From positions 928,001-992,000 of the forward strand of contig JAYFMW010000006.1 in assembly GCA_042408215.1 (NCBI GenBank): a stretch of 64,000 nucleotides of DNA, written 5' to 3'. Positions 3,882 through 28,326 of the stretch are shown here, in pieces. Every line of letters starts with the position of its first letter. Position 1 is the first letter of the stretch. Below the pieces are notes generated by a model. It searched no databases. It saw only the letters and a list, made by a program, of their open reading frames with translations, and was not told where the DNA came from. A program made the translations under genes and the position numbers. The stretch is from Microcoleus sp. Lineage in GTDB: Bacteria > Cyanobacteriota > Cyanobacteriia > Cyanobacteriales > Microcoleaceae.

Positions 3882-5186
3882 TCAAACTATTTTATTAATG
3901 GCCGGCTCTTGCACTGAATCGCAATTTTTTAATAGGGACAATCCGAAGAAAATTCGCAAACCCCAAATTTCAAACCAAGGCAAACCCCATCCCAATTTCA
4001 TCTTGAGGATAAAATACTTTTCAAATGCTGCTTTTGCCCAGTTTACCCAGCGTCCTTGCAAAGCATAAGAGTAACGCCGTTTACCTGTTTTTGGATCTGG
4101 TAAAACGGGGGCGGCAACATAGACAATGCCCGTATCGCCAAATTCAGCAAAACAAATCGCTTCCAAAGTTGGTGTTTTCCAACTATTTGCGATCGCACCT
4201 AATCTCACCCCAATATTGTTAGTCACGGCTAATCCCATTGCTTCCGTCATTTGTCCAGTTTTGGGTAATCCCAGCCCAGAGATTGCTTTGTTGTCGGGCA
4301 ATTCCACGCTGACACCAAGGGCATAAACTGAGGAAAATTGAGGATGTTCGTAGGTAGGTAATACGGGAATAAACCCTTTTTCATTTCCCAATCCAGGTAC
4401 TTTTTGGATAAAATCTACTCCTCGAAAAGCTGGCAGAATCATGGCATATTCAAAGGGAAGTTTTCGCCCATCAGCAAGCGCGATCGCTTCGGCATCAACT
4501 GAGGTAATTTGAGCGTTAGTTATTGCCTGAATTCCTCTTTTTTTCATCAGGTTTTCCGTGAATTCTTGAGAGTTACTTAATCCATCTAAACCTAAATGTC
4601 CCAGATAAGGTTCTGGTGTCACAAAAGTAATTGATACTTGCTCTCGCAAACCTCTGCGCCGCAACTCCCACTCTGCCATAAATAAAAACTCATAAGCTGG
4701 CCCAAAACAACTCACTCCTGCCATTGCTCCTACCACTAAATGACGGGGATTGTCTAAGAATTTTAGCCATGCTGTTCGCGCTTCTAAAGCATGATGGGGA
4801 GAGCAAACTGAGTGCGTATAACCCCCCTCTGGCCCAAGTCCGGGGACAGCATCAAATGCAAAAGAAGCACCTGTGGCGATCGCCACATAATCATAATCAA
4901 TAATCCGATTTTCTGCAACAGTGATGCGTTTAGTTTCAGGGTCAAAATCTGTGATTTTTCCTAGTATCCATTCAATCCCGTGTCGCTGAGTTAATTCAGG
5001 TACCTTTAATTGAATGTCTTCTAGGGGGTTAAGATTCAGCGCTACCCGGACCAACCCAGGAATAAAAGTAAATTCGGGGCGATCGGAAATTAACGTCACC
5101 TGATGTTCCTTCGGCAGCAGATGTCGCAGTTCGTAAGCAGTGGGAAGTCCCCCCAATCCCGCGCCAATTACAACCACTTTTGCCAT
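3882..5186 (-). CDS. sqr: Sulfide:quinone oxidoreductase, type I (SqrA-like)
   Basis: GAGLGGLPTAYELRH FAD motif; HSVC, SCFGPAYE, PKTGQMTE and ICFAEFGD motifs. Confidence 0.9.
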   Translation of the reverse strand: MAKVVVIGAGLGGLPTAYELRHLLPKEHQVTLISDRPEFTFIPGLVRVALNLNPLEDIQLKVPELTQRHGIEWILGKITDFDPETKRITVAENRIIDYDYVAIATGASFAFDAVPGLGPEGGYTHSVCSPHHALEARTAWLKFLDNPRHLVVGAMAGVSCFGPAYEFLFMAEWELRRRGLREQVSITFVTPEPYLGHLGLDGLSNSQEFTENLMKKRGIQAITNAQITSVDAEAIALADGRKLPFEYAMILPAFRGVDFIQKVPGLGNEKGFIPVLPTYEHPQFSSVYALGVSVELPDNKAISGLGLPKTGQMTEAMGLAVTNNIGVRLGAIANSWKTPTLEAICFAEFGDTGIVYVAAPVLPDPKTGKRRYSYALQGRWVNWAKAAFEKYFILKMKLGWGLPWFEIWGLRIFFGLSLLKNCDSVQEPAINKIV

Positions 5187-5390: not shown

Positions 5391-5419
5391 TTGACAATAT
5401 GACTATGTGGTTATATACT
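5391..5419 (+). promoter_or_regulatory. Sigma70-type promoter of the hdr operon
   Basis: TTGACA (5391-5396), 17-bp spacer, TATACT (5414-5419), ~55 bp upstream of the hdrC1 ATG. Confidence 0.7.
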
Positions 5420-5473: not shown

Positions 5474-6181
5474 ATGGGCAAGCTATTTAACGAGCTTAAA
5501 CAAGACATTTTGTACCAGCACGGCATGAATGCCTGCCTGAATTGCGGCATATGCACAGCAGTTTGTCCAGCGGCAGAGTTTTATGACTACTCTCCCAGAG
5601 AGGTGATGAACATTTGCCAATCTGAAGCTGACGATCTAATAGAAGAGTTACTTAAGTCAGACAAAATTTGGTATTGCGGGCAATGTTTTTCCTGTAAAAC
5701 CAGGTGTCCAAGAGGTAATAATACCGCCAATGTTATTCTGGCATTGCGCCGACTTTCCGTTCGTCACGGTTACTTTGCCGAGTCAGAAAAAGGCAGACAG
5801 CAATTGTTTGCCAAGCGAGTATTTGGGGAAAATATGCTGAAACGAGGTTATACCTTGCTGGCAGAAAATATCACCCCCGCCCACTTCCCAGAACTCGGAG
5901 AAAACTGGGAATACTATTACGAACACATGGCGGAAATGCGCGAATGGTGGGATGTGCCGATGGACTTGAAAAATAGTGCAGGTTCCCACCGAGTTATTCC
6001 TGAAAAAGACATGGAAGAATTGCGGGCAATTTATCAAGCAACCGGGGCGATCGAGTTAATGGATGCCGTAGAAAAAGGCATGGAAAAGAAACTCGGTAGC
6101 AAAGAAGAAGTCGAAAAATTCTGGGAAAACTGGGTAGAAACTGCTGATAGCAGAAACTACGAAATGGACGAAAATAAATAA
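5474..6181 (+). CDS. hdrC: Heterodisulfide reductase-like subunit C1 (2x[4Fe-4S])
   Basis: CLNCGICTAVCP and IWYCGQCFSCKTRCP motifs. Confidence 0.85.
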   Translation: MGKLFNELKQDILYQHGMNACLNCGICTAVCPAAEFYDYSPREVMNICQSEADDLIEELLKSDKIWYCGQCFSCKTRCPRGNNTANVILALRRLSVRHGYFAESEKGRQQLFAKRVFGENMLKRGYTLLAENITPAHFPELGENWEYYYEHMAEMREWWDVPMDLKNSAGSHRVIPEKDMEELRAIYQATGAIELMDAVEKGMEKKLGSKEEVEKFWENWVETADSRNYEMDENK

Positions 6182-6192
6182 GGAGAAAAATT

Positions 6193-7104
6193 ATGCAGAC
6201 CGTCAATAGCCTTAGCAATGTAAATAGCAGTCTTGATGCCACAGAAACGGCAGGACTCATCTATATGCGCGAAGAAGAAAAATTAGCGCATGATGTGTAT
6301 GTCACCCTGTACCAGCAGTGGGGATTGTCTACTTTTAACAACATCGCAAATAGCGAAAATCGTCACGAGAATAAGATTGAAACACTGCTCAATAGCTATC
6401 AGATTTCAGATTCAGTAGGTGATAATCCGGTTGGTGTTTTTGTCAATCCAGATTTACAACAATTGTACAACAATCTGGTAGCGCAAGGGAGTCAATCGCT
6501 GACTGAAGCCCTGAAGGTAGGAGTTTTAATTGAGGAGACTGACATTGCCGATTTGCAAACGCGAATTGCCCAAACAGATAACGCAGACATTCAACAAGTA
6601 TATCAACAGCTTTTAAGTGGATCGAATAATCACCTGAGTGCATTTACTTCAAACTTGACTGGCGAAACGGTTAATACCAACTCGTCTAGTTGTCCAACAA
6701 ATCAGACTCAGGGAACAACAACAGATGACACCCTAACTGGGGGGAGATGTAATCAAATGTTAGTTGGGAATCGTGGCGGCGATTTACTGACAGGAGAATT
6801 AGGAAATAATAACGTTGTTCGGGGTGGTGCTAACTCAAGATATAGCACAGATTTTTTGTTAAATTCGCCGAGTCAAATTAACAACTATCAAGTACAGGAA
6901 TTTGAGCAGAATTATCGAAATTTAGATCGGAATTTTGCGGCTCAAAACCTGCCCATTGGCTCATGCAATGCCGGGAGGAGCAGTAACTTATCTACGAACA
7001 ACTTGGGGACAGGCTTTTCTGCCAATCAAACCCAGATTGGTACTCTTAATATGAGGCCGACCAATGATTGTAATACCCAAGGTTTAATTTGCGTTAATTC
7101 CTGA
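6193..7104 (+). CDS. DUF2202 ferritin-like protein with degenerate RTX-like/low-complexity tail
   Basis: MREEEKLAHDVY, SENRH, IEETDI and GSNNHL helices; DDTLTGG and GDLLTG nonapeptide-like stretches. Confidence 0.7.
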   Translation: MQTVNSLSNVNSSLDATETAGLIYMREEEKLAHDVYVTLYQQWGLSTFNNIANSENRHENKIETLLNSYQISDSVGDNPVGVFVNPDLQQLYNNLVAQGSQSLTEALKVGVLIEETDIADLQTRIAQTDNADIQQVYQQLLSGSNNHLSAFTSNLTGETVNTNSSSCPTNQTQGTTTDDTLTGGRCNQMLVGNRGGDLLTGELGNNNVVRGGANSRYSTDFLLNSPSQINNYQVQEFEQNYRNLDRNFAAQNLPIGSCNAGRSSNLSTNNLGTGFSANQTQIGTLNMRPTNDCNTQGLICVNS

Positions 7105-7164
7105 ATTAACATCAACATCAACAGAAACTCCGAATCAAAAGACAATAAATAAGGACAAAACATA

Positions 7165-8211
7165 ATGAAAGTAACAAGACAAAATCTGGTTTGGGAAAAA
7201 CACCAAAAGCAGGTTCCAACAGTCGATGATGAAGGCGGCAAATTGTGGGGATGCTTCCGCAGTTGCTTTCTCCAAAGTGCCGCACCATACACCGAAGGGA
7301 TTGCCTATAAAATATTAAAAAACGATTTGGGCATGGACTTGCGGGAAGCACCCGGACATACTTCTTGTGGCGCAATTGGCTATCACGGAGATGTGTCAAA
7401 CCTCGAAACTCAAATGGTAGTTGCAGCGCGGAATTTTTCCGTAGCCCATCACGAATTAGGTGTTGATAATCTCTTCTCATTCTGTGTCACTTCTTTTGCG
7501 AATTACACAGAAATGATCAAACTCTGGGAAGAAGAACCAGAGTTGCGAGAATACACCGAAAAAACCTTAAAAGAAACCACCGGACGAGAATTTTGGGTTC
7601 CCCATGTTTCCGGGGGAAGACCATCTGTTGTTCATGCTTCCGATGTTTTCTATGCCAATCGGTATAAACTAGCCGCCAAAGCGAAATATAGCCTGAAGGG
7701 AATTAAAGCAGTCGATCACATCGGATGTCACTACGGAAAAATCTTTCCGGGTGAAGCAATGGGTGGGGTGGAATTTCCCCAAGTTTTAGTAGGATTACTG
7801 GCAGCTTTTGGTGCAGAAATTGTTGACTATCCAGAAAGAAGACATTGCTGTGGGATGGGTTTTCGCCAGTGTGCTTTTCCCGAAAACAGAGACTACACCG
7901 CAAGTAACGTCTACAAGAAAATGAAAGGTCTCAAAGAAGCGCACCCAGACTGCAATTTGATTCTCACTAACTGTCCCGGATGTACGGTATTTTTGGATGC
8001 TGAACAAGGAACGATTAAAGAAGTTTTGGAAGAAGAATTTAACGTCAGCGTTCTGGATTACGCACAATTGACTGGGTTAATGTTAGGCTATGACCCATTT
8101 AAGGATTGCGGACTGAATGCCAAGGCGGTTGAAATCGAGCCTTTGCTGGATAAAATCGGCATTCCTTACGATAAATCTAAGACTGCTGAACAACGCCGAA
8201 GACCATTTTAA
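7165..8211 (+). CDS. hdrB: Heterodisulfide reductase-like subunit B1 (CCG domains, first cluster motif variant)
   Basis: FRSC, HTSCGAIG, CVTSF, HIGCH, HCCGMG and NCPGC motifs. Confidence 0.85.
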   Translation: MKVTRQNLVWEKHQKQVPTVDDEGGKLWGCFRSCFLQSAAPYTEGIAYKILKNDLGMDLREAPGHTSCGAIGYHGDVSNLETQMVVAARNFSVAHHELGVDNLFSFCVTSFANYTEMIKLWEEEPELREYTEKTLKETTGREFWVPHVSGGRPSVVHASDVFYANRYKLAAKAKYSLKGIKAVDHIGCHYGKIFPGEAMGGVEFPQVLVGLLAAFGAEIVDYPERRHCCGMGFRQCAFPENRDYTASNVYKKMKGLKEAHPDCNLILTNCPGCTVFLDAEQGTIKEVLEEEFNVSVLDYAQLTGLMLGYDPFKDCGLNAKAVEIEPLLDKIGIPYDKSKTAEQRRRPF

Positions 8212-8217
8212 GAGGTG

Positions 8218-8310
8218 AGAAACCGGGTTTCTTCCTGGGCACAAAGTTTTCTGGTAAAACCTAACCATAAACCCGGTTTCTTTTCAACCAATCAAATAAA
8301 CCCGGTTTCT
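8218..8310. repeat. Cyanobacterial dispersed palindromic repeat (GAAACCGGGTTTC/AAACCCGGTTTC)
   Basis: Same core recurs at 26254-26320 and 28178-28242. Confidence 0.75.
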
Positions 8311-8335
8311 TTAATTAACTATAAAGGTAAAAAAC

Positions 8336-9406
8336 ATGAACAAACAAGTGGTCGTAATTGGTGGTGGTCCTGCTGGTCTAGCAGCGGCTGGAAAACTGCA
8401 AGACTTTGGCTATGATGTAGTTTTAATCGAGAAACAAGCCGAAGTTGGGGGACATTTAAACAAGTGGTATAAAGTGTTTCCTGATTTTACCGATGCTTCA
8501 GAAATTACCGCCAATCTCAAAGCTGGTTTAGGGAATACCAGAATTGTAAATAATGCTACGGTGACAGAGATTAAAGGTTCTGCTCCTAATTTTCAAGTGA
8601 CGGTATCAACGGGAGAAGAAATTGAGGCAGCGGCGATTTTAGTTTCGACAGGATATAAGCATTTTGATGCAACTTTAAAAGAAGAATACGGCTACGGAAT
8701 TTATGATAACTGCATCAATTCGGTAGAACTAGATGCCATGCTGAAGGCACAAAGCGTTAAAACCAGAAAGGGGAAAGTGCCGAAGAAAGTAGCGCTGATT
8801 CATTGCGTGGGTTCTCGTGATGAGAAGGTGGATAATAATTACTGTTCGCGAGTTTGCTGCACGAATGCCATTAAGGTAGGAATTGAGATTAAAGAACAGA
8901 ATCCCGATTGTGAAATTTACTGCCTTTATATGGATATTCGGGTGTTTGGTCGCGGTTATGAGGAACTGTACAGAACTTCTCAACAAGAGTTTGGAGTGCA
9001 GTTTCTTCGGGGTCGGCTTTCTGAAGCGGGTGAGAAAAATGATGGCAGTTTATTGTTGCGGCTAGAAGATACGTTAACGGCAAAACCGATGCGGTTGACG
9101 GTCGATCTTTTGGTTTTGATGGTGGGGATGGAGGGTAATACCGAGTTATCTGACGTGGCCGGTTTAACCTTGGGTTGCGATCGCTTCTATGCCACTGCCC
9201 ATCTGCAATATTCTAACAATCATTCTGCTCGATCGGGTATTTTTCTCGCCGGGGCAGCAACGGGGCCAAAAGCGATTATGGAATCCATTACCGATGGCCG
9301 ATCGGCGGCGGCAGAAATTGCCAGTTTTGTAGCGAGTAATCAAGCAAATTTGGCATCCAACCTGAATGGAAAAGCAGTAACAAAAATGGCAGCATCTCTG
9401 AAGTGA
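8336..9406 (+). CDS. hdrA: Heterodisulfide reductase-like subunit A, short form (FAD + one [4Fe-4S])
   Basis: GGGPAG, EYGYG, HCVGSRD...YCSRVCC, YMDIR..G, GIFLAGAATGPK; no ferredoxin insert. Confidence 0.9.
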   Translation: MNKQVVVIGGGPAGLAAAGKLQDFGYDVVLIEKQAEVGGHLNKWYKVFPDFTDASEITANLKAGLGNTRIVNNATVTEIKGSAPNFQVTVSTGEEIEAAAILVSTGYKHFDATLKEEYGYGIYDNCINSVELDAMLKAQSVKTRKGKVPKKVALIHCVGSRDEKVDNNYCSRVCCTNAIKVGIEIKEQNPDCEIYCLYMDIRVFGRGYEELYRTSQQEFGVQFLRGRLSEAGEKNDGSLLLRLEDTLTAKPMRLTVDLLVLMVGMEGNTELSDVAGLTLGCDRFYATAHLQYSNNHSARSGIFLAGAATGPKAIMESITDGRSAAAEIASFVASNQANLASNLNGKAVTKMAASLK

Positions 9407-9417
9407 GGTAAACAACA

Positions 9418-10008
9418 ATGGCAACTAAGAATAAGAAAAAATTTGTCTTTGGTCTGAAAGTTGATCGTCAACTCGATGGCGATCAAATGAACTCCGATTT
9501 TATTAAGAAAGTTCTGGCTGAAGGTGGCCAAGGTGCGGCGATCGCGGCTTGTATGCAATGTGGCACTTGTAGCGGTGGCTGTACCAATATTGACCTGATG
9601 GATATGTCCCCCCGAACCCTAATTTTAATGGTGCAAAGAGGGGAATGGGAAAAGGTACTTCAAAGCAATGCTTTGTGGATGTGTAGTTCCTGCTACATCT
9701 GTACCTCTCGATGTCCGCGTGGGGTGCGTCCTTCTGATGTGATTGAAGCGGTAAAAGCACTCGCAATTCGCCAAGGAATCGAGAACGATTCTACCCGATT
9801 CAATCAGATATTTGTCGAGTTAGTTCAGAAACGAGGCATTTTGTTTGAACCGGAATTAATGCACAAATATGGCGGTTTACCAGCCATGATCGAACAAGCA
9901 GAATTGGGAATTAAATTAGCTTTAAAAGGCAAAATGTCACCATTCCCAGAAAACGTAAAAGATCCCAAAAAATTTAGTGAAGCATTAGAAAAGGCAAAAA
10001 AACCATGA
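9418..10008 (+). CDS. hdrC: Heterodisulfide reductase-like subunit C2
   Basis: CMQCGTCSGGC and LWMCSSCYICTSRCPRG motifs. Confidence 0.88.
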   Translation: MATKNKKKFVFGLKVDRQLDGDQMNSDFIKKVLAEGGQGAAIAACMQCGTCSGGCTNIDLMDMSPRTLILMVQRGEWEKVLQSNALWMCSSCYICTSRCPRGVRPSDVIEAVKALAIRQGIENDSTRFNQIFVELVQKRGILFEPELMHKYGGLPAMIEQAELGIKLALKGKMSPFPENVKDPKKFSEALEKAKKP

Positions 10009-10883
10009 AATCAACCACGAAATATTCTTACTATCCCGGATGTAGTCTGCATACCACAGCTAAAGAGTTTGATATCTCAACTAGAGTGGTAATGCAGGAA
10101 TTAGGAATTGAACTAGAAGACCTCAAAGACTGGTCTTGTTGTGGCGGTTCCATCGCGGCGAGTGTTTCTCACGATGTTGGTATGGCAATGGCGGCGAGAA
10201 ATGTCGCTTTAGCCCAAAAACAAAATCTCGATTTATTAGCATCTTGTTCGGGGTGTTACAACAAGTCAGCAAGGGCGCTGAAGGCATTAAAAGAACCCAC
10301 CGAAAAAGATAGAATTATGGCTATTATGTCGGATATGGGGATCGATGTTTCTGACTATAACATCCGGGTCAGAAATGTGGTGGATGTGTTAGTAAATGAT
10401 GTGGATATTGCCTCGCGAGTAAAAAAGCCATTAACAGGTTTAAAAGTTGCCTGTTATTATGGATGTCTGTTAACTAGACCGGCAGATATCACGGGTTGGG
10501 ATTCGCCGATGTTCCCGACATCAATGGATAGATTATCTGAAATTTGTGGGGCGGAAGTAGTAGATTTTCGATCGAAAACTAAGTGCTGCGGTGGCCCGAT
10601 TCTGGTATCCAAAGAAGAGGTCGCGTTTGACCTTACGAAGAAACTCTTGGATGAGGCCCAATCTCTGGGTGCAGATTGTATTGTTTTGGCTTGTCCGTTG
10701 TGCGACACTAACCTAGAACTGCGCCAGTCGGATATCGAGAAAAAATACAACGTTTCTTACAATTTGCCAATTCTCTATATCACCGAAATCATCGGATTGG
10801 CTTTAGGAATGAAACCGAGTAAATTGGGGATGAACAAGCACATTGTTTCAGCACAACCCGTCCTCAAAAAATTGGGTTTATAA
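10005..10883 (+). CDS. hdrB: Heterodisulfide reductase-like subunit B2 (canonical CCG motifs)
   Basis: YYPGCS, WSCCGG, CSGC, YYGC, KCCGG, CPLC; ATGA overlap with hdrC2. Confidence 0.9.
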   Translation: MKSTTKYSYYPGCSLHTTAKEFDISTRVVMQELGIELEDLKDWSCCGGSIAASVSHDVGMAMAARNVALAQKQNLDLLASCSGCYNKSARALKALKEPTEKDRIMAIMSDMGIDVSDYNIRVRNVVDVLVNDVDIASRVKKPLTGLKVACYYGCLLTRPADITGWDSPMFPTSMDRLSEICGAEVVDFRSKTKCCGGPILVSKEEVAFDLTKKLLDEAQSLGADCIVLACPLCDTNLELRQSDIEKKYNVSYNLPILYITEIIGLALGMKPSKLGMNKHIVSAQPVLKKLGL

Positions 10884-10892
10884 ACCATAAAA

Positions 10893-11759: not shown

Positions 11760-11850
11760 TGATGACATGATTGTTCAAAACCGACTCAAATTTTAGCTTT
11801 TGATCGAATCGATCGGAAAAAATCTCTGTTCATTTAAACCAGTAATTATC

Positions 11851-12057
11851 ATGTTTAGCAATGTGGGAAGCCCAGATCGAATCGTTCGCTTTTTATTAGC
11901 AGCAATTCTGCTTTACAGGGGTTTGAGTATTTACCAAGGTACTGCCTTGGGAATTGGATTAGATATTGCCTCAGCTTTGCTGGCTTTCAGCGCTTTGTTT
12001 GGCTTTTGTGGCATCTATCGCGTGCTGGGGATTAGCACTTGCAAATCTCCCAACTGA
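11851..12057 (+). CDS. DUF2892 (YgaP-like) small membrane protein
   Basis: NVGSPDRIVR...FGFCGIYRVLGISTC; start taken at ATG 11851. Confidence 0.8.
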   Translation: MFSNVGSPDRIVRFLLAAILLYRGLSIYQGTALGIGLDIASALLAFSALFGFCGIYRVLGISTCKSPN

Positions 12058-12111
12058 CTTGTGTAATTTTCCGTTAAATTCCGACAACTATCAACACTCT
12101 AAAAAACAATA

Positions 12112-12645
12112 ATGGATAATAGTTTTCCTCTCGAAAGTCCTTCCATGTCTCGCCGACAGTTGCTCAATTTTCTAACTGGTACTGTCGTTGCATCTACTGC
12201 CGGTGCCGCACTTTATCCAGTCGTGAAATATTTTATCCCCCCATCAGAAAGCAGCGAAGGGGGAGCGATTATCGCCAAAGATATCTTAGGAAATCCCATT
12301 CCCGCCAGCCAAATTTTAGCCGAACCTGTGGGAACTCGCGCTTTAGTGGCGGGGTTAGCTGGCGAACCTACTTACTTAATTGTTCAAAAAGATAGTATGA
12401 TCGATCCGGTGGGAATTGTTGATAACTGCACCCATTTAGGCTGTACTTTTCCTTGGAATGGAACTGACCAAGAATTTCAATGTCCCTGTCATGGTTCTCG
12501 CTACAGTGCTGACGGTTCTGTATTACGGGGCCCGGCTCCTCTGCCTCTAAAATTAGTTAATGTTGCCGTCAAAGAAAATGCCATTTTGATTTCTCCTTGG
12601 ACAGAAATTGACCCCCGCACCGGCGAAACTCCTTGGTGGGTTTAA
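12112..12645 (+). CDS. petC: Cytochrome b6f Rieske Fe-S subunit, PetC2-type paralogue
   Basis: Tat signal SRRQLL, CTHLGC, CPCHGS, GPAPLPL, DPRTGETPWWV; not next to petA. Confidence 0.9.
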   Translation: MDNSFPLESPSMSRRQLLNFLTGTVVASTAGAALYPVVKYFIPPSESSEGGAIIAKDILGNPIPASQILAEPVGTRALVAGLAGEPTYLIVQKDSMIDPVGIVDNCTHLGCTFPWNGTDQEFQCPCHGSRYSADGSVLRGPAPLPLKLVNVAVKENAILISPWTEIDPRTGETPWWV

Positions 12646-12694
12646 ATCCAGGAATTGAACAACAAATAAAATCATCAACAACCGGAAAAAATAG

Positions 12695-13138
12695 ATGTTT
12701 CAAAGCGTCACTGAATCCCTAGCTATTGGTAATGTTACCTCATCGGAAGAACTGAGCGAAATTTACCAAAAAGGCTACCGGACAATCATCGATTTATGTA
12801 CCGCGGCAGAAGGAAACCAACTCAATGCAGAGGAAGTTAAACAACTAGGGTTTGATTATATCAGCTTACCCGTTGATAGACAAAACCTCAAACCGGAAAT
12901 TCTGCAAGGATTTATGCAGGCTGTTGATTCCCAGAACCAGCCCATTTATACCCGCTGTGCATCAGGTTTGCGAGCGGGAGTAATGACTCTATTAACTTTA
13001 GCAAATCAAGAAAATTGGACGGAACAGCAGTATTTAGAACATCGGCAAGCTTTGGGAATAGAACACAAGCCGAATTGTCCTTTAGAAGCCTTTGCTCATG
13101 AGTATTTTATCAACTCACAAAATCAAGTTAAATCTTAG
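12695..13138 (+). CDS. DUF442/Blh-like sulfurtransferase (phosphatase fold)
   Basis: GYRTIIDL and CASGLRA (CxxGxR) active loop. Confidence 0.7.
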   Translation: MFQSVTESLAIGNVTSSEELSEIYQKGYRTIIDLCTAAEGNQLNAEEVKQLGFDYISLPVDRQNLKPEILQGFMQAVDSQNQPIYTRCASGLRAGVMTLLTLANQENWTEQQYLEHRQALGIEHKPNCPLEAFAHEYFINSQNQVKS

Positions 13139-13149: not shown

Positions 13150-13656
13150 ATGAAAATCGCTGTAGCTAGTCAAAATAAAACAGCTATCACGGAACACGCC
13201 GGACATTGCCGTAAGTTTTGGATTTACGAAACCAACGCAACAGAAATTCTGGGAAAGCAACTTTTGGAATTATCTCCAGAACAATCTTTTCATAACAGTT
13301 CTGGCGACGAACCCCATCCTTTAGATGATGTGCAGGTTTTGATTTCTGGAGGTATGGGACGCGGTTTGGTGCGACGAATGGAACGAAAAGGAATTGAAGC
13401 CGTTATCACCAAAGAAACCGATTTAGAGAAAGCGGTAAGTGCCTATCTTGATGGTTCTTTAGTTAGGGGAGAACCGGAATGTCACGAACATGAAGGTGAA
13501 CAAAAGCATGAAGGTGAACACAAGCATGAACACAAGCATGAACACAAGCATGAAGGTGAACAAAAGCATGAAGGTGAACACAAGCAGGAAGGTGAACATA
13601 AGCATCAACATCGCCATCAACACGGTCATCAAGGCGAATCTAAGAGTGCCGTGTAA
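13150..13656 (+). CDS. NifB/NifX-family protein with His/Glu/Lys-rich C-terminal tail
   Basis: MKIAVAS...EHAGHCRKF, ISGGMGRG; repetitive HEGEQK/HEHK tail. Confidence 0.8.
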   Translation: MKIAVASQNKTAITEHAGHCRKFWIYETNATEILGKQLLELSPEQSFHNSSGDEPHPLDDVQVLISGGMGRGLVRRMERKGIEAVITKETDLEKAVSAYLDGSLVRGEPECHEHEGEQKHEGEHKHEHKHEHKHEGEQKHEGEHKQEGEHKHQHRHQHGHQGESKSAV

Positions 13657-13735
13657 TTCCCGTTATTACTGCTAGTTGGGTAGGGTGCGTGGCAGCCACG
13701 CACCCTACTATTGATGTTCATCTACTAATACAATT

Positions 13736-14191
13736 ATGTGGGCAAGTTCGATTACAGCTTATTTCCATTACTTAGGCTTCATGGTAGCTTTTGCGGCTCT
13801 CACAGTCGAGATTTTTAACTTCAAAAAAGAAATGACCCTTGATGAAGCTAAAAGAGTTGCTTTTGCCGATGCTGCTTATGGGATAGCTGCTACGGCAATT
13901 CTAATCACAGGGGTGTTGAGAGTTCTCTATTTTGGCAAGGGAACGGATTACTATTTAAATAATCCATTTTTCTATGCTAAAATGGGTGTGTTTATCCTCG
14001 TCAGTTTATTTTCCCTGTATCCAACATTTACCTTTATATCGTGGTTTAAAGACTTACAAAGTGGTCAAACTCCCCGATTAGAAATTGACCAAGTAAACCG
14101 ACTATCTTGGCTGATTAAAGGGGAATTATTCTGTTTTACTTTATTGCCACTGCTCGCAGCAGTTATGGCGAGAATTACCGGGTGGAGTTAA
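13736..14191 (+). CDS. DUF2214 family membrane protein
   Basis: DAAYG...TGVLRV..FGKGTDYYLNNPFFYAK...SLYPT. Confidence 0.8.
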   Translation: MWASSITAYFHYLGFMVAFAALTVEIFNFKKEMTLDEAKRVAFADAAYGIAATAILITGVLRVLYFGKGTDYYLNNPFFYAKMGVFILVSLFSLYPTFTFISWFKDLQSGQTPRLEIDQVNRLSWLIKGELFCFTLLPLLAAVMARITGWS

Positions 14192-14203
14192 GGGAGAAAA
14201 ATT

Positions 14204-15208
14204 ATGCAGCTTTCCAAAAACAATCTACAAGAAAGACAAAACCAAATCTACGATGTCATTGTCATTGGTGGGGGTGCGGGAGGACTTTCGGCTGGTATTT
14301 ACTTGCAACGATATCGCCTTTCTAGCTTAATTATTGATAAAGGCAAAGCGCGGTCTTTTTGGATGCAAGAATTGCACAATTATTTAGGTTTGCCTCCCGA
14401 CACTCCGGGGCGAGTTTTGTTACAACGAGGAAAAGAACATTATGACAGTTTAAATGGTGATTTTCTCAATGGTTTTGTTGAAGAAGTTGTAGACGAGGGA
14501 GAAACCTTTGCTGTCAAGGTTAAAGTCGGTCGTCAAAATAGTAGTGAGGCTGTTTTTCGGTCAAAATACTTAATAGCTGCAAGCGGAATTATCGACCATT
14601 TACCGCCTTTAGATGATCTGCGGAATGTTTTCGAATATGCCGGTTATAACTTGCACGTTTGTATGGTATGCGACGGGTATGAAATGACTGACAAAAAATG
14701 CGGTTTCTTTGCAGGTAGTGAAGCAGCTATTGAGGAAATGGTGTTTAATTTAAGTTGGTTTACGCCCTATATTACTGTCTTTACTCATGGAGTGTTTACT
14801 GTCAGCGAACCCCTGAAAGCTAAACTGCGAGAACATGGTTATCCCCTTGTAGAAACACCGATTAAACAATTTCTAGGTCAAAATCACCAAATGACAGGGG
14901 TTGAGTTAGCAGATGGAGCAATAATAGAGTTAGAAACTGGCTTAATTTCAATGGGTTCTCGCTATCACAATACCTATCTCAAGGGAATTAACTTAGAAGT
15001 CAAAGGTAACAATTTACTTACTGATAAAATGTGCCAAACTTCTCACCCCAGAATTTTTGCGATCGGGGATTTAAAAGTAGGGTTAAATCAAGTTATAATA
15101 GCAGCAGGAGATGGCGCTTTAGCGGCTACGGCAATTTGGCGAGAAATCCGTCGTGCAGCAGGAGCTAAACCTTGGGTTGAAAATCTCCCTGCTGTGACAA
15201 ATGGATAA
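14204..15208 (+). CDS. Thioredoxin-reductase-like FAD oxidoreductase
   Basis: GGGAGG, CMVCDG, TSHPRIFAIGD, QVIIAAGDGALAA. Confidence 0.8.
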   Translation: MQLSKNNLQERQNQIYDVIVIGGGAGGLSAGIYLQRYRLSSLIIDKGKARSFWMQELHNYLGLPPDTPGRVLLQRGKEHYDSLNGDFLNGFVEEVVDEGETFAVKVKVGRQNSSEAVFRSKYLIAASGIIDHLPPLDDLRNVFEYAGYNLHVCMVCDGYEMTDKKCGFFAGSEAAIEEMVFNLSWFTPYITVFTHGVFTVSEPLKAKLREHGYPLVETPIKQFLGQNHQMTGVELADGAIIELETGLISMGSRYHNTYLKGINLEVKGNNLLTDKMCQTSHPRIFAIGDLKVGLNQVIIAAGDGALAATAIWREIRRAAGAKPWVENLPAVTNG

Positions 15209-17537
15209 TATTATGGCTGAAGATATTCGCGATCGCAAAATCACTGAAATCCCCCTTGCGGAAGCTACCAAGCAACTACAAAGAGAAATTAAACAACGGG
15301 AAAAAGCCGAAGCACAACTGAAACAACAAGAGCAAAAGTTATCACTGTTGTTCAATCAAACTGCTTTAGCCGCCATTGAATGGAATGCCAATTTAGAAGT
15401 TATCGCTTGGAATTCCGCCGCCGAAAAGGTGTTCGGTTGGAGTGTCACCGAAATGCTAAGTCTTCAGGCCTCCGATTTAATCTTACCCCAAAAAGTCAAA
15501 CCGCGAGAAATTCCAATTATTAAAGAGCCACTGACATCAATTGGCGGGACGCACAATATTAATGAAAATGTCACAAAAGATGGCAAATTAATTATTTGTG
15601 AGTGGCACAATACGCCGTTAGTCGATGAAGAAGGAAATATTATCGGTATTTTTTCCTTGGTGAATGACATTACGGAACGCTGGAAAATAAGAGAAGCGTT
15701 GCGGGAAAAAGAGGAGTTTTTACGCAGTATCTACGAAGGGGTAGATTATCCTATTTTCGTGATAGATGTAGATGCTCACGGAACTTACCGTTGCGCCGAT
15801 CTGAATCCAGTTGCTAAAAATATTTTTGGCATAAATTTAGATGAAATTCCAGCGGTGTTAAGTCCAGAATTATTTCTAAGAGAACTAGCAAAAGGTGGTC
15901 TGCATTCCTCGGATAAATGCGTTCATCACGGACAGACAATTCAATATGAAAAAGTCTTGAATATAGAGGAAAAAAAGACTTGGTGGTTAACAGTAATAAC
16001 ACCCCTAAAGGATATTGATGGACGCATTTATAGGTTAGTCGGAACTTGTACTAATATTACGCAACGCAAACAATTCGAGTCAGCTTTACAACAGTCGGAA
16101 ACCAGATATAGACAACTGGCACAGCGAGAATCTATGCTCAATTGTATGGCCAGTCAAATTCGCGCTTCCCTTGATTTTAATACTGTTGTAGAAACGGCGG
16201 TACAAGAACTTTATCAAGTGTTGCAGTTGGAAAGATGTGCCTTCAGATTATATTTACCAGAAGCTATTCCCCCAGTAGCTGAAGTGATCGCGGAAGCGAA
16301 AAAAACAGACTTACCTTCCTTAAAAGGGAATCGAGTTCCCACTGCCGAAATTGCCCCGTTAATTGCTAAGATTACACGCAAAGAAGTTACCAGAATCGAA
16401 GATACTCTAACTCTAGAAGATCCCGTAGAAAGACAATTTTTTCTTGAGACTTTAGACTATCGTGCTGTCGTGTTTATACCTGTTCACACTCAGTCAGGTA
16501 AAATGGGTGCAATTAGTTGCAGTCATAGTAGTAAAACCCGATGTTGGAGTGATAGTGAAGTACAACTATTAGAAAGGGTTGCGGATCAACTCGCGATCGC
16601 TTTAACTCAAGCAGAATTATACGAACAAAGTCGAGCGATCGCGGATTCTGAAGCCAATAAAGCCTTAGAATTGCAAGAGGCTTTGCTGAAATTGCAACAC
16701 ACCCAAACTCAACTGATCCAACAGGAAAAAATGTCCAGTTTGGGACAACTGGTAGCGGGAGTCGCCCATGAAATTAATAACCCAGTTAGCTTTATTTACG
16801 GCAATATTACCCCCGCGAAAACTTATATAGAAGATTTGCTTAATCTCGTGGAGCTTTATCAGGAATCCTATCCCAATCCCACCCCTGAGATTCAAACAGA
16901 ATTGGCAGAAATTGATTGGGAGTTTATGCAGAAAGACTTTCCTAGTCTGCTCGATTCTATGAAAACTGGTGCAGAGCGGATTCGACAAATTGTCCAATCC
17001 TTGCGTAACTTTTCCCGACTAGACGAAGCCGAGATCAAACCTGTTGATTTGCATGAAAGTATTGACAGCGTTCTATTAATTCTGGAAAATCGGTTAAAAG
17101 CTAATTTAGAACGTCCGGCTATCCAGGTAGTTAAAGAATATGGCAACCTGCCTTTAGTTGAGTGCTATGCAGTCGAAATCAACCAAGTTTTTATGAATCT
17201 ACTTCTGAATGCCATTGATGCTTTAGAAGAAGTTCCGTTGAAGCAGCCAAGGATTCGGATTGTTACGGAAGTATGGGAAACCGAAGAATTAGCGATTCGC
17301 CTTATTGATAATGGAGTGGGGATTCCAGCAGAGATAAAAAAGCGAATTTTTGACCCATTTTTTACCACAAAAATTGTAGGAAAAGGAACGGGTTTAGGAT
17401 TGTCGGTTGTGTACAAAATTATCGAAAAACATGGAGGAACTATAGAATGTATTTCCGCCGATGAAAAAGTAACGGAGTTTGCGATCAAAATTCCCCAATT
17501 TCTCAAAAAAATCACCCTGAATACACCCATTGACTAA
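15201..17537 (+). CDS. PAS-PAS-GAF sensor histidine kinase
   Basis: Two PAS/PAC domains, GAF, H-box AHEINNP, N/G boxes DNGVG, DPFFTTK, GTGLGL. Confidence 0.92.
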   Translation: MDNIMAEDIRDRKITEIPLAEATKQLQREIKQREKAEAQLKQQEQKLSLLFNQTALAAIEWNANLEVIAWNSAAEKVFGWSVTEMLSLQASDLILPQKVKPREIPIIKEPLTSIGGTHNINENVTKDGKLIICEWHNTPLVDEEGNIIGIFSLVNDITERWKIREALREKEEFLRSIYEGVDYPIFVIDVDAHGTYRCADLNPVAKNIFGINLDEIPAVLSPELFLRELAKGGLHSSDKCVHHGQTIQYEKVLNIEEKKTWWLTVITPLKDIDGRIYRLVGTCTNITQRKQFESALQQSETRYRQLAQRESMLNCMASQIRASLDFNTVVETAVQELYQVLQLERCAFRLYLPEAIPPVAEVIAEAKKTDLPSLKGNRVPTAEIAPLIAKITRKEVTRIEDTLTLEDPVERQFFLETLDYRAVVFIPVHTQSGKMGAISCSHSSKTRCWSDSEVQLLERVADQLAIALTQAELYEQSRAIADSEANKALELQEALLKLQHTQTQLIQQEKMSSLGQLVAGVAHEINNPVSFIYGNITPAKTYIEDLLNLVELYQESYPNPTPEIQTELAEIDWEFMQKDFPSLLDSMKTGAERIRQIVQSLRNFSRLDEAEIKPVDLHESIDSVLLILENRLKANLERPAIQVVKEYGNLPLVECYAVEINQVFMNLLLNAIDALEEVPLKQPRIRIVTEVWETEELAIRLIDNGVGIPAEIKKRIFDPFFTTKIVGKGTGLGLSVVYKIIEKHGGTIECISADEKVTEFAIKIPQFLKKITLNTPID

Positions 17538-17541
17538 TGCT

Positions 17542-18369
17542 ATGAAAACCTCGTTTATCCTCACTGTTTTAGTGGAAAATACCTCTTCCGGTAGAGGATT
17601 ATTGGGAGAACATGGACTATCTTATCTAATAGAAGCCGGTGAGTACCGAATTTTATTCGATACAGGACAAGGATTGGCATTACAACATAATGCTAAAGAG
17701 TTGGGAATTTCTTTACATAATTTAGATGCTGTTGTCCTCAGTCATGGTCATTACGATCGTGCAGGTGGTTTAATCACAGTATTAGATGAATGTCATCTCA
17801 CCAAATTATTCCTGCATCCATCGGCACTGCCACCCAAATTTAGCAATCGAGGTGATATTGGTTCTCCTATCCAAGATAAAGATACTCTGGAAAAGAAATT
17901 TCGCCAGTTAATTTGGACAGATAAACCAACAGAAATTATCCCTGGAGTTTATGTAACTGGTACTATTCCTCGACTTCATCCTTTGGAGGATACGGGGGGT
18001 GATTTTTGGCAAGATTCCCAGCATGATCGAGTTGATTTACTCTTAGATGATCAAGCGTTATTTATTGATTCACCAGAGGGTTTAGTGGTGGTTTTAGGGT
18101 GCGCTCATGCGGGAGTAATTAACACTCTAAATTACATTGCACAAATTACTGGAAAAGACAAGTTTTATGCTATAATTGGGGGAATGCACCTTTTGAATGC
18201 TAGTCGCGATCGCCTGCAAGCAACGGCAGAAACCTTGACCAAATATGACGTGCAAATAATAGGTGCTAACCACTGCACAGGAATGACCGCCATAGCTTTT
18301 TTGTGGCATCAGTTGGCGGGAAAGTGTATCAGTTGCTCCGTTGGTACTCGCTTAAAATTTGGCATTTAA
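17542..18369 (+). CDS. MBL-fold metallohydrolase (COG1237-like)
   Basis: EHGLS, FDTG, SHGHYD(R), DDQAL, GCAHAG, GGMHL and HCTG motifs. Confidence 0.8.
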   Translation: MKTSFILTVLVENTSSGRGLLGEHGLSYLIEAGEYRILFDTGQGLALQHNAKELGISLHNLDAVVLSHGHYDRAGGLITVLDECHLTKLFLHPSALPPKFSNRGDIGSPIQDKDTLEKKFRQLIWTDKPTEIIPGVYVTGTIPRLHPLEDTGGDFWQDSQHDRVDLLLDDQALFIDSPEGLVVVLGCAHAGVINTLNYIAQITGKDKFYAIIGGMHLLNASRDRLQATAETLTKYDVQIIGANHCTGMTAIAFLWHQLAGKCISCSVGTRLKFGI

Positions 18370-18412
18370 AAGCGGTAATTTGACGAGTTTATTTAGTTTT
18401 TAGGACAAAGAT

Positions 18413-18874
18413 ATGCGAAGAATTTTTCTAAAATTATTGCTGGGGATGTTATTATCTATTGGGATTTTGTCGATCGCGCCCATGCCAGTCATAGCCGCAG
18501 GTTCGATGCCCCAAGCGCTATCAGACGCGATCGATAATTTTTTGACTTCTCTTCCAAGCGATTATTACACTGTGATGAAGATCGAGAACCTTAAAGAGAA
18601 GATCAAAACTGATAATCCTCTATTAATTGATGTCAGACAGCCTGCTGAATACGCCTCTGGACACATTCCCAATGCCATTAATATCTCCTTGCAAACCTTA
18701 GCCGAAAATCTCGATAAAATTCCCAAAGATCGCCCTGTAGTTCTCTATTGCACAAGCGGCTATCGAACGGGAATGGGAGTTATGACTTTGGAAATGTTAG
18801 GATATACTAACGTGCAGGCTTTTCCTCCTAGCATTCAAGGTTGGAAAGCGGCGGGTGAACCTTTGGAAAAGTAG
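18413..18874 (+). CDS. Exported rhodanese-domain sulfurtransferase
   Basis: Signal peptide; IDVRQPAEYASGHIPNA, YCTSGYR, GWKAAG. Confidence 0.88.
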   Translation: MRRIFLKLLLGMLLSIGILSIAPMPVIAAGSMPQALSDAIDNFLTSLPSDYYTVMKIENLKEKIKTDNPLLIDVRQPAEYASGHIPNAINISLQTLAENLDKIPKDRPVVLYCTSGYRTGMGVMTLEMLGYTNVQAFPPSIQGWKAAGEPLEK

Positions 18875-24845: not shown

Positions 24846-26159
24846 TTATTTTTTCCACTGGATCAACTTGATGTAATCTCCTTCAAACTGCTCTCCTTTC
24901 AGCATCCGATTCCAATAAATCCAAGGCAAAGCAGTAGTTTTCATCTTCCACATAATCCAGCTTTCTTGCACAGGGTTGAGGGGAAAACTAGAAAGCACAG
25001 TACCACTATAACCATCAAATTCGGCCATGATTGTCTTGCCATAACCAGTGATTAAAGGACAGCAAGTATAGCCGTCATACTTATGTAATAATGGTTTGGA
25101 GTCTATTAAAGCTAGTAAATTTTCTGCTACGATCGGTGCTTGTTTGCGAGCTGCTGCTGCTGTCTTAGAAGTTGGCAGCGAAGAAGCATCCCCCAAGCTA
25201 AATACGTTGGGATATCGATTGTGCTGGAGCGTGTATTTATCTACATCTACCCAGCCATAGGAACTACCGGGAACGGCCAAAGGGCTTTGTTTAATAAAGT
25301 CAGGAGCGCTTTGCGGCGGTGTGACGTGAATCATTTCGTACTTGTGGGTGACCTCATCGACAACAGCACCGTTATCATCGAAAACATCAAAAACTGCTTC
25401 TTTGGTTTCAGGTTTAATTTCCTTCAAATTGTGCCGGAACTTAACATCAATTTCCCGTTGTTGGACGACTTTATCTAATAGTGATGAATACTCCGGTACG
25501 GAAAACATTTTGGTTGCTGGTGTGAGAAACATCACGTTAGTGCGCTGACGGACTCCCAATTTACTGCGGAAGGTATCATCTGCCATGTACATGACTTTTT
25601 GCGGCGCACCACCACATTTTACCGGAGTGTTGGGAAAGGTAAATAGAGCATTTCCACCTTGGAAATTTTTGATTAGTTCCCAGGTATAAGGTGCGTAATT
25701 AGGAGCATAATTGCTAGTAACACCATCTTTTCCGAGCGCTTCTCTCAGTCCTTTAATTAAATGCCAGTCCAACTGAATGCCGGGACTGACAATTAAGTAA
25801 TCATACTCAACCAGGATGCCTTCTTTGGTGAGGACGGCATTGTTTTCTGGGTCTAATTTAACCACTCGGTCTGCGATCCAAGTCGCTTGTCGAGGAATGA
25901 AATCTTTTTTATCCCTCACTGTATCCTCAATTTGGAATACTCCTCCGCCTGTCAGCGTCCAACCGGGTTGGTAATACTGCTTCTTCGATGGCTCGATGAT
26001 GGCAATATCTAGGGATTTGTTTTTTTTCAATAACATAGAGGCGGTGGGAAGTCCGGCAGACCCGCCCCCGATGAAAACGATTTGGTGGTGCAGTGTCTTG
26101 GTAATGGCGGGGGTTGCGGACGCTGGAGTCTGGGACTGTTGGGAATTTGAGGTGATCAT
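24846..26159 (-). CDS. sqr: Sulfide:quinone oxidoreductase, type II (SqrB/eukaryote-like)
   Basis: YYQPGWTL, KCGGAPQK, PTSKTAAA, YDGYTCCPLITG, LPWIYWN. Confidence 0.88.
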   Translation of the reverse strand: MITSNSQQSQTPASATPAITKTLHHQIVFIGGGSAGLPTASMLLKKNKSLDIAIIEPSKKQYYQPGWTLTGGGVFQIEDTVRDKKDFIPRQATWIADRVVKLDPENNAVLTKEGILVEYDYLIVSPGIQLDWHLIKGLREALGKDGVTSNYAPNYAPYTWELIKNFQGGNALFTFPNTPVKCGGAPQKVMYMADDTFRSKLGVRQRTNVMFLTPATKMFSVPEYSSLLDKVVQQREIDVKFRHNLKEIKPETKEAVFDVFDDNGAVVDEVTHKYEMIHVTPPQSAPDFIKQSPLAVPGSSYGWVDVDKYTLQHNRYPNVFSLGDASSLPTSKTAAAARKQAPIVAENLLALIDSKPLLHKYDGYTCCPLITGYGKTIMAEFDGYSGTVLSSFPLNPVQESWIMWKMKTTALPWIYWNRMLKGEQFEGDYIKLIQWKK

Positions 26160-27273: not shown

Positions 27274-27284
27274 GGATTTAGATC

Positions 27285-28123: not shown

Positions 28124-28167
28124 TTTTTATATGAGTAGGGGTAGGGACACGGCAATGCCGTGTCCCT

Positions 28168-28264: not shown

Positions 28265-28326
28265 AAATACAGATGTGGAGATAGTTTCATGCCCGGTACA
28301 GAAATATTAACTAATTCATAGTTTGA

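What the first reader, a model, noticed from the sequence alone, without database searches (positions are those of the whole stretch)
5474..10883. Complete heterodisulfide-reductase-like (hdrC1B1A-C2B2) gene set in an oxygenic cyanobacterium, divergent from sqr
Seen: five Hdr subunit genes in the order C1-B1-A-C2-B2, with a short HdrA (FAD plus CVGSRD/CSRVCC cluster, no ferredoxin insert). Known: this order and the short HdrA typify the sHdr sulfane-sulfur oxidation system of chemolithotrophs (Hyphomicrobium, Aquifex, Acidithiobacillus), and related sets occur in anaerobes such as Bacteroidota. To my knowledge, cyanobacterial sulfur metabolism is described via SQR and PDO, not Hdr. Also seen: HIP1 sites in hdrA (9177) and hdrC2 (9538) and a host repeat between hdrB1 and hdrA, arguing these are resident genes. 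Inference: a new cyanobacterial persulfide/polysulfide oxidoreductase, either oxidising SQR-made sulfur without O2 or reducing it in dark anoxia.
Basis: partly seen in the sequence, partly recalled or inferred. Interest (0 to 1): 0.95.

Follow-up and report, generated by a model that had tools for sequence, protein, structure and literature searches.

The report
Sulfide-regulated Hdr-like operon in cyanobacteria
Many cyanobacteria carry five genes related to an enzyme of methane-makers and sulfur-eaters, apparently under the same DNA switch as their sulfide-oxidising gene, so they may process sulfur further than thought, even without oxygen; the genes were listed in print before, but their job is untested.

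Summary
The locus is not unique: hdrB1 is in 50 of 401 genomes of this order, 50 of 50 complete clusters keep the order C1-B1-A-C2-B2, one paper already lists a five-gene hdr cluster in a cyanobacterium without a function (PMC12060301), and this scan reported the system on another genome (e1-2300337). It is not sHdr: no sHdrH, LbpA or DsrE; HdrA groups with Bacteroidales, HdrB1 with Altiarchaeales. It is a cousin, sharing the short HdrA and two Cys-to-Ser changes in HdrB1. New here: a 20-bp palindrome overlaps the hdrC1 promoter; a matrix trained only on hdrC1 upstream regions also finds it before sqr in 13 of 20 hdr-negative genomes and before a two-cysteine ArsR in 20 of 30. So hdr probably belongs to the sqr regulon. 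Best reading: an LbpA-free complex acting on SQR-made sulfane sulfur (0.75), most likely oxidising it without O2 (0.45); reduction in dark anoxia remains open (0.25).

The parts
3882..5186 (-). sqr, type I sulfide:quinone oxidoreductase (C128, C160, C345)
   Evidence: best PDB hits are sulfide-quinone reductases, E 3e-88, three cysteines aligned
5391..5419 (+). sigma-70-like promoter of hdrC1 (TTGACA-17-TATACT)
   Evidence: 11 of 12 consensus matches, best of 24 sites in 3600-12200; consensus match only
5397..5416 (.). palindromic operator between and over the -35/-10 boxes; inferred ArsR site
   Evidence: 23.4 bits, best site in the genome; window left out of training
5474..6181 (+). hdrC1, two CxxCxxCxxxC motifs
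   Evidence: 70-71% identical to proteins named Ca. Altiarchaeales
6193..7104 (+).
   Evidence: E 3e-46; in 2 of 50 related clusters
7165..8211 (+). hdrB1; one full non-cubane site, one with two Cys-to-Ser changes (S67, S110)
8218..8312 (.). three copies of a host dispersed repeat
8336..9406 (+). short hdrA (FAD, one [4Fe-4S]); K409 equivalent kept, E356 equivalent is Asp
9177..9184 (.). HIP1 site in hdrA
9418..10008 (+). hdrC2, two CxxCxxCxxxC motifs
9538..9545 (.). HIP1 site in hdrC2
10005..10883 (+). hdrB2; all ten non-cubane cysteines, His154 equivalent is Leu
   Evidence: HdrB model 204 bits, SdhE-type anchor model 198 bits
10893..11188 (+). frameshifted DUF4405-like membrane gene
   Evidence: intact relatives in L018 and L020
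11205..11759 (+). second DUF2202-like ferritin-fold protein with a hydrophobic N-terminus
   Evidence: (feature score 0.92, lead only)
11800..13138 (+). YgaP-like membrane protein, petC paralogue, Blh-type sulfurtransferase-like protein
13150..15208 (+). NifX-like protein, DUF2214, thioredoxin-reductase-like flavoprotein
17530..18874 (+). metallo-beta-lactamase-fold protein and rhodanese
24846..26159 (-). second SQR-family gene (type II-like; type label inferred)
26569..30108 (+). persulfide-dioxygenase-like gene, two YeeE/YedE-like genes, sulP
   Evidence: the pdo and YeeE/YedE labels are inferred from sub-cut-off hits and context

Best explanation
A persulfide-induced, cytoplasmic, LbpA-free Hdr-like complex that takes up the sulfane sulfur made by SQR and oxidises it to sulfite (then thiosulfate) without O2. 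Steps: (1) SQR turns H2S into polysulfide or persulfide and reduces plastoquinone (family knowledge). (2) Persulfide inactivates a two-cysteine ArsR repressor bound over the hdrC1 promoter (site shown; binding and inducer inferred). (3) The subunits assemble as A2-C1B1-C2B2, as predicted for type I sHdr (inferred). (4) Rhodanese, Blh- or YgaP-type carriers, or glutathione persulfide, replace TusA/DsrE/LbpA and present sulfur to HdrB1, whose altered site matches sHdrB1 (residues shown; chemistry inferred). (5) Electrons pass C1, A, C2, B2 and leave either to plastoquinone and the petC paralogue or to a thiol-disulfide pool (inferred, the weakest step). The broad claim, that this is a sulfide-regulon enzyme acting on sulfane sulfur, stands at about 0.75; the confidence given is for the oxidative direction.
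For: Operator at 14 bits or more before hdrC1 in 43 of 51 upstream regions (training set), and in held-out sets before type I sqr in 13 of 20 hdr-negative genomes and before the ArsR in 20 of 30, with 0% of shuffles reaching that score; it also precedes sqr2, pdo, tauE and ygaP-petC in related loci. Type I sqr in 30 of 50 hdr-positive against 57 of 351 hdr-negative genomes (kin are not independent). An sqr lies in the fetched flanks of 31 of 50 complete clusters, within 2.5 kb in 24 of 50; 40 of 50 have some sulfur-handling neighbour. Both Cys-to-Ser changes of HdrB1 are in 57 of 57 cyanobacterial and 76 of 76 sHdrB1 sequences. Short HdrAs of sHdr, Bacteroidales and cyanobacteria form one group at 96% SH-aLRT. 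dN/dS 0.03-0.13 in 20 of 20 gene pairs. Some cyanobacteria are reported to oxidise sulfide to thiosulfate or sulfite by an unknown enzyme (PMC5776472, PMC12694226; passages). RNA run X15 holds contigs over the operon of a 92-96% relative at 690-3157x (a hint only).
Against: LbpA is essential for sHdr (PMC6067878, start of abstract) and is absent: one GcvH only, above the housekeeping cut-off; no DsrE; no sHdrH. A cyanobacteria-plus-sHdr clade is rejected for HdrA (p-AU 0.004). The sHdrB1 Cys231-to-Asp change (76 of 76) and the sHdrA Lys409-to-Asn change (55 of 56) are absent. The same Ser/Thr changes occur in 62 of 62 Bacteroidales HdrB1, so they do not mark sulfur oxidation. The nearest non-cyanobacterial relatives are anaerobes not known (my recall) to oxidise sulfur. 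19 of 50 clusters have no sqr in the fetched flanks and 10 of 50 no sulfur neighbour. In this genome the sqr2-pdo spacer has only a 6.9-bit site, the genome already has an O2-using PDO-like gene, and the operator also precedes acsF in 3 loci, which fits a wider low-O2 regulon. The ArsR scores 46 bits against a BigR cut-off of 155. No membrane or quinone-binding subunit is in the operon.
Confidence: 0.45

Rival explanations
1. Same regulon, opposite direction: a ferredoxin- or NAD(P)H-fed persulfide/polysulfide reductase that removes excess sulfane sulfur and serves as an electron sink (S0 to H2S) during dark anoxic fermentation.
For: HdrB2 keeps all ten cysteines of the disulfide-reducing enzyme; HdrA keeps Lys409 in 52 of 52; closest relatives are anaerobes; the genome has PFOR beside a NiFe hydrogenase; no LbpA needed.
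Against: Neighbours are mostly oxidation and export genes (sqr, pdo, tauE, petC); in 5 named or handled loci hdrB2 runs into sqr within about 100 bp on the same strand or head-to-tail (L014, L015, L029, L128, L159), and co-expression would set up a futile H2S/S0 cycle; no MvhD or ETF donor module.
Confidence: 0.25
2. A low-oxygen redox module acting on a non-sulfide disulfide or simply moving electrons between ferredoxin, thiols and quinone; it sits in sulfide islands because sulfide and anoxia come together.
For: Operator before acsF in 3 loci and bchE-like, hcp, NifX-like and radical-SAM neighbours; Bacteroidales use the same C1-B1-A core with a membrane CCG protein and mostly no sulfur neighbours; 10 of 50 cyanobacterial clusters have no sulfur neighbour; PMC8002359 suggests bifurcation.
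Against: The operator is shared with sqr even in genomes without hdr; E356 is Asp in 52 of 52 and the ferredoxin domains and MvhD are missing, which argues against classical bifurcation (criterion from PMC12054007, passages).
Confidence: 0.2
3. A true sHdr pathway that borrows the housekeeping GcvH as its lipoate carrier.
For: Gene order minus H, short HdrA, HdrB1 serines; a cyanobacteria-plus-sHdr clade is not rejected for HdrB1 (p-AU 0.29); one GcvH and two BPL/LplA/LipB-family genes exist.
Against: No GcvH-like gene in any cyanobacterial hdr locus scanned; the single GcvH lies far away on the contig; HdrA clade rejected; diagnostic residues differ.
Confidence: 0.07
4. Assembly artefact or decaying foreign DNA.
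For: 0 of 24 congeners have hdrB1; one family member has a truncated cluster (L127); a frameshifted gene follows hdrB2.
Against: Bridging contigs from two studies, host repeat and HIP1, purifying selection, 50 of 401 genomes.
Confidence: 0.02

Closest known systems
Type I sHdr-LbpA system (Hyphomicrobium, Aquifex, Acidithiobacillus; PMC11094781)
   Same: C1-B1-A...C2-B2 order, short HdrA, two Cys-to-Ser changes in B1, ten cysteines and loss of His154 in B2, nearby rhodanese, probably a two-cysteine ArsR repressor.
   Different: No sHdrH, LbpA or DsrE, no linked TusA; mostly 26-37% identity to reference subunits; B1 keeps Cys231, A keeps Lys409 and has Asp at 356; HdrA not in the sHdr clade.
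Uncharacterised hdrC1-B1-A module of Bacteroidales, and HdrC1/HdrB1 of Ca. Altiarchaeales WOR_SM1
   Same: Nearest relatives: about 40-50% (Bacteroidales C1, B1, A) and 70-71% (Altiarchaeales B1 and C1); same altered B1 site and Lys409.
   Different: Bacteroidales end with a short ferredoxin and a roughly 600-aa membrane CCG protein instead of C2-B2, and are rarely next to sulfur genes; the Altiarchaeales gene context could not be seen.
Methanogen HdrABC-MvhAGD (PDB 5ODC)
   Same: Folds, cluster motifs, complete non-cubane ligands in HdrB2, Lys409.
   Different: No ferredoxin domains in HdrA, no MvhD, two different B/C pairs, altered B1 site; CoM/CoB are not expected in this host (recalled).
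hdr genes already listed in cyanobacteria (Cyanobacterium sp. DS4, PMC12060301; Phormidium pseudopriestleyi, PMC8002359)
   Same: DS4 has five genes B-C-A-B-C, which is this order read backwards.
   Different: Those passages give no sulfur function, regulon or survey; DS4 sqr has a distant locus tag; I did not fetch either sequence, so orthology is inferred.
Cyanobacterial SQR-PDO-rhodanese-transporter islands with arsR
   Same: All these genes are in the window or genome; arsR near 27 cyanobacterial sqr genes was noted in PMC5061849.
   Different: The known route past S0 needs O2 (PDO, recalled); the Hdr block would add an O2-independent step.

Membership tests
Type I sHdr | Syntenic shdrC1B1AHC2B2 including sHdrH | tested here: not met
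   Order met in 50 of 50, but the hdrA-hdrC2 gap is 15-400 bp; reference sHdrH proteins give no genome hit better than E 0.067
Type I sHdr | Lipoate-binding protein LbpA | tested here: not met
   One PF01597 gene, a housekeeping GcvH; 12 reference LbpAs hit only it and no cyanobacterial hdr locus
Type I sHdr | TusA and DsrE-type sulfur transferases | tested here: not met
   No PF02635 or PF13686 match, one TusA on another contig, genome 99.98% complete; rhodaneses are present
Type I sHdr | Short HdrA without ferredoxin insert | tested here: met
   356 aa, colinear with 6TJR
Type I sHdr | HdrB1 with Cys41 and Cys81 replaced by Ser (pattern read from my reference set) | tested here: met
   57 of 57 cyanobacterial, 76 of 76 sHdrB1; Ser/Thr also in 62 of 62 Bacteroidales
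Type I sHdr | HdrB1 Cys231-to-Asp and HdrA Lys409-to-Asn (patterns read from my reference set) | tested here: not met
   Cys in 57 of 57, Lys in 52 of 52
Type I sHdr | Subunits branch with sHdr | tested here: inconclusive
   HdrA rejected, p-AU 0.004; HdrB1 not rejected, p-AU 0.29, long branches; HdrB2 unresolved; quick trees; references reached from one Acidithiobacillus plasmid protein, no Aquificota or archaeal sHdr confirmed among them
Type I sHdr | Oxidises sulfane sulfur to sulfite | not testable with these tools
   Needs a mutant or purified enzyme
Type II sHdr | Fused sHdrB3 with etfAB-emo | tested here: not met
   C2 and B2 are separate ORFs; no ETF in the genome
Bifurcating HdrABC-Mvh | HdrA ferredoxin domains and MvhD | tested here: not met
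   Flx subunits were not searched
Bifurcating HdrABC-Mvh | K409 and E356 pair | tested here: inconclusive
   Lys kept, Glu replaced by Asp in 52 of 52; criterion from PMC12054007
Bacteroidales-type hdrC1B1A module | Downstream membrane CCG protein | tested here: not met
   No genome hit to the L033 protein at E 1e-6; no PF02665
BigR/SqrR-type persulfide sensor (the ArsR at G000:C12:30312-30656) | Two conserved cysteines forming a sulfur bridge | tested here: inconclusive
   First Cys of the L026 homologue aligns with a BigR Cys; a C-terminal Cys pair is present but its alignment to BigR was not shown; below the BigR model cut-off

The most novel reading that the evidence does not exclude
About one in eight genomes of this cyanobacterial order carry a third, lipoate-independent branch of Hdr-type sulfur oxidation. 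It lets them oxidise SQR-made S0 on to sulfite or thiosulfate without O2 and pass up to four more electrons per sulfur through HdrC2B2 to plastoquinone and photosystem I. It would be the missing enzyme behind thiosulfate-forming anoxygenic photosynthesis, taken over from anaerobes and placed under the sqr repressor.
Probability: 0.3. Interest if true: 0.88.

Novelty: new variant of a known kind. Interest (0 to 1): 0.63.

Why it matters
Cyanobacterial sulfide use is usually drawn as SQR to S0, with PDO needing O2. Reports of thiosulfate or sulfite as products, and a modelled second sulfide-oxidising enzyme, have no gene (PMC5776472). An Hdr-like block under the sqr operator gives a concrete candidate in cultured strains (named records: Picosynechococcus sp. 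PCC 7003 plasmid; Coleofasciculus chthonoplastes PCC 7420 and Nostoc sp. PCC 7524). Either direction would change electron and sulfur budgets of mats and of low-oxygen early-Earth analogues. It also warns that hdrB in mat metagenomes may be cyanobacterial: in Lake Fryxell it tracked psbA and rbcL yet was assigned to sulfate reducers (PMC7153904). For Hdr biochemistry it would show whether the B1-type site works without lipoate.

Tried and rejected
Literature: ten searches found no paper tying cyanobacterial hdr genes to sulfur or describing the operator; the library lacks most subscription papers, so Wagner 2017, Ernst 2021, Appel 2021 and Kumpel 2024 were not seen, and no supplement was read (Table S1 of PMC11094781 lists sHdr genomes and could bear on this). 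No occurrence of 'hdr' in the main text of PMC4975002, PMC8651085, PMC7784965, PMC5776472, PMC5061849 or PMC12694226; PMC12590107 and PMC13500833 gave nothing on cyanobacterial hdr. The nearest non-cyanobacterial HdrB2 was not reached: all 120 rows were 70% identical or more and every named one was cyanobacterial, and plasmids gave one cyanobacterial hit. The 92-row HdrA tree did not finish its careful search; all trees are quick trees, and HdrC trees were not built. No complex or structure prediction was obtained. L030 is titled Ca. Sulfopaludibacter, but nests among cyanobacteria in both trees and carries a bchE-like gene; I treat it as a probably mis-binned cyanobacterial contig, not as an acidobacterial relative. 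One search used wrong positions for three HdrB2 cysteines; one search corrects them. A hydrophobicity scan found no clear membrane helix in the five subunits. No terminator stood out from shuffles.

Full report
Observation. The window lies on a 1.08-Mb contig of a 7.36-Mb genome, 99.98% complete with 2.55% contamination. The five hdr ORFs, the short HdrA, the divergent type I sqr, both HIP1 sites and the host repeat are all as described. Contigs from two independent DNA studies bridge the junctions with 0-14 differences over 1.9-2.7 kb, and dN/dS against four relatives is 0.03-0.13 for every gene. The genes are resident and selected.

The island is larger than the finding. Downstream lie a ferritin-like gene, ygaP-like, a petC paralogue, a Blh-type sulfurtransferase-like gene, NifX-like, DUF2214, a thioredoxin-reductase-like gene, a histidine kinase, an MBL-fold gene and a rhodanese. 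At 24.8-30.1 kb come a second SQR-family gene, a pdo-like gene, two YeeE/YedE-like genes and sulP.

Distribution. hdrB1 was found in 8 of 401 genomes drawn across the class and 50 of 401 across the order, in 29 of 146 genera and 0 of 24 congeners; both counts include this genome. Of these 64 loci I dropped 6 as duplicates; 50 of the remaining 58 hold all five genes, always in the same order; 8 are cut by contig ends, truncated or solo hdrB1. Cluster GC runs from 36% to 63% and follows the surrounding DNA. One copy is on a mobilisable plasmid of Picosynechococcus sp. PCC 7003, with sqr directly behind hdrB2. Patchiness plus the plasmid suggests spread among cyanobacteria; I did not compare gene and species trees.

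Link to sulfide. Type I sqr is in 30 of 50 hdr-positive and 57 of 351 hdr-negative genomes; kin inflate any test. An sqr of either kind lies in the fetched flanks of 31 of 50 clusters, within 2.5 kb in 24, in varied orientation; 10 of 50 have no sulfur neighbour at all. The strongest evidence is regulatory. Upstream regions of hdrC1 share a 20-bp palindrome. A matrix trained on relatives only, without the window, scores 14 bits or more in 43 of 51 regions against 0.3% of shuffles (circular for the training rows). Its best site in this whole genome is window 5397-5416, lying over an 11-of-12 sigma-70 match; the second best is just upstream of an ArsR gene whose homologues stand divergent to hdrC1 or beside sqr in several relatives. 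Two held-out sets confirm it: 13 of 20 upstream regions of sqr from hdr-negative genomes (20 picked from the 57 by score and flank length) and 20 of 30 upstream regions of the ArsR (the 30 best of 281 genomes with a match, including this genome and close kin), against 0% of shuffles. The ArsR has a cysteine aligned with one of BigR and a C-terminal cysteine pair, but falls below the BigR cut-off. Related two-cysteine repressors sense sulfane sulfur (PMC12423496, passages), and arsR beside cyanobacterial sqr is known (PMC5061849, passages). Against: the sqr2-pdo spacer here scores only 6.9 bits, and the site also precedes acsF in 3 loci. That the ArsR binds this site, and that persulfide releases it, is inference.

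Is it sHdr? By the published definition, type I needs shdrC1B1AHC2B2 and comes with lbpA and TusA/DsrE/rhodanese; the main text of that survey does not mention cyanobacteria (PMC11094781; abstract, introduction, start of results and passages). I obtained reference loci with C1-B1-A-H-C2-B2-lbpA from metagenomes. The window's subunits are mostly 26-37% identical to them. The genome has no sHdrH, LbpA, DsrE, ETF or MvhD match. HdrA groups with Bacteroidales (95%), and a clade with sHdrA is rejected (p-AU 0.004). HdrB1 groups with proteins of Ca. Altiarchaeales (95%; 70% identity), but a clade with sHdrB1 is not rejected (p-AU 0.29). Residues are mixed: the two serines of HdrB1 are shared with sHdrB1 and, as Ser/Thr, with Bacteroidales; Asp231 of sHdrB1 and Asn409 of sHdrA are not; Glu356 is Asp only in cyanobacteria. 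So it is not a member, but shares the C1-B1-A lineage and may work like one. PMC12423496 says that the cyanobacterium 'Sodalimona willei' has no shdr genes, while Phormidium willei BDU 130791 carries this cluster (L023); I infer these are the same species, which would mean current sHdr screens do not count it.

Mechanism. In the nearest architectures the C1-B1-A core is joined to a membrane module: a roughly 600-aa membrane CCG protein in Bacteroidales, a membrane Fe-S protein in an acidobacterial locus, EtfAB-EMO in type II sHdr (PMC11094781). In cyanobacteria HdrC2-B2 takes that place. HdrB2 keeps all ten cysteines and scores nearly alike on HdrB and on the SdhE-type quinone-linked anchor model (204 and 198 bits). 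I therefore favour oxidation of sulfane sulfur at B1 with electrons leaving through B2 to plastoquinone or a disulfide pool (0.45). The reverse reaction (0.25) and a general low-oxygen redox role (0.2) remain. Physiology offers a target: thiosulfate and sulfite are reported products in some cyanobacteria, and a second sulfide-oxidising enzyme is hypothetical (PMC5776472 and PMC12694226, passages). An RNA library holds contigs over the whole operon of a close relative at 690-3157x, with 28x or less on the other listed pieces; this shows presence and hints at expression, no more.

Novelty. The genes were listed in Cyanobacterium sp. DS4 as a five-gene cluster of unknown substrate (PMC12060301, passages) and in Phormidium pseudopriestleyi (PMC8002359, passages). 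A recent mat study found only SQR in its cyanobacterial genomes and calls Hdr annotation uncertain (PMC13384644, passages). The scan reached a similar view on another genome (e1-2300337); that is not independent support. Verdict: real, a new variant of a known kind, function untested, interest 0.63.

Noticed in passing
window 10893-11188: DUF4405-like gene is frameshifted here; contigs of runs X14 and X7 differ by one base in this gene.
   Followed up: partly
L154, L155, L157, L125, L018: A solo hdrB1 paralogue (83-86% identical) sits divergent to a nitronate-monooxygenase-like gene, in four of five cases with its own operator site; suggests B1 has interchangeable forms or works alone.
   Followed up: partly
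L127: A genome of the same family has sqr divergent to hdrC1 as here, but hdrA is cut short and hdrC2 is missing.
   Followed up: no
L030: Contig titled Ca. Sulfopaludibacter carries the cyanobacterial-type cluster with PDO-rhodanese fusion, tauE and a bchE-like gene; probably a mis-binned picocyanobacterial contig.
   Followed up: partly
window 23139-23981, 17530-18369, 13150-13656; L054, L058, L078, L095: Radical-SAM, MBL-fold and NifX-like genes of the island resemble genes beside hdrC1-B1 in some Bacteroidales loci that lack the short hdrA (the radical-SAM likeness is by eye).
   Followed up: no
P0008, P0405-P0408, P0471, P0472: Ca. Altiarchaeales WOR_SM1 proteins are 70% identical to HdrB1 and HdrC1, with two hdrB1 copies on one 28.7-kb contig; direction of transfer unknown.
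   Followed up: partly
HdrB1 positions 30, 236, 263, 315: Four extra cysteines are nearly invariant in cyanobacteria, three also in Altiarchaeales, and absent from Bacteroidales and almost all sHdrB1; candidates for a persulfide-carrying residue.
   Followed up: no
L081: Acidobacterial locus with membrane Fe-S protein, hdrC1-B1-A, an NrfD-type protein and a molybdopterin oxidoreductase: another uncharacterised wiring of the same core.
   Followed up: no
G000:C14:8686-9570: A separate HdrB-like gene (35% to hdrB2), probably the succinate dehydrogenase anchor (label recalled); it can confuse hdrB counts in cyanobacteria.
   Followed up: partly
window 21740-22924, 30147-31340, 42803-44236; 35070-36056 and 42083-42610: Two IS605/TnpB-like ORFs and a transposase-like ORF in or near the island; a duplicated Rpn-like gene (only the first was family-scanned).
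   Followed up: no
L135, L137, L138 (acsF): The operator also precedes acsF, linking the regulon to low-oxygen chlorophyll synthesis.
   Followed up: no
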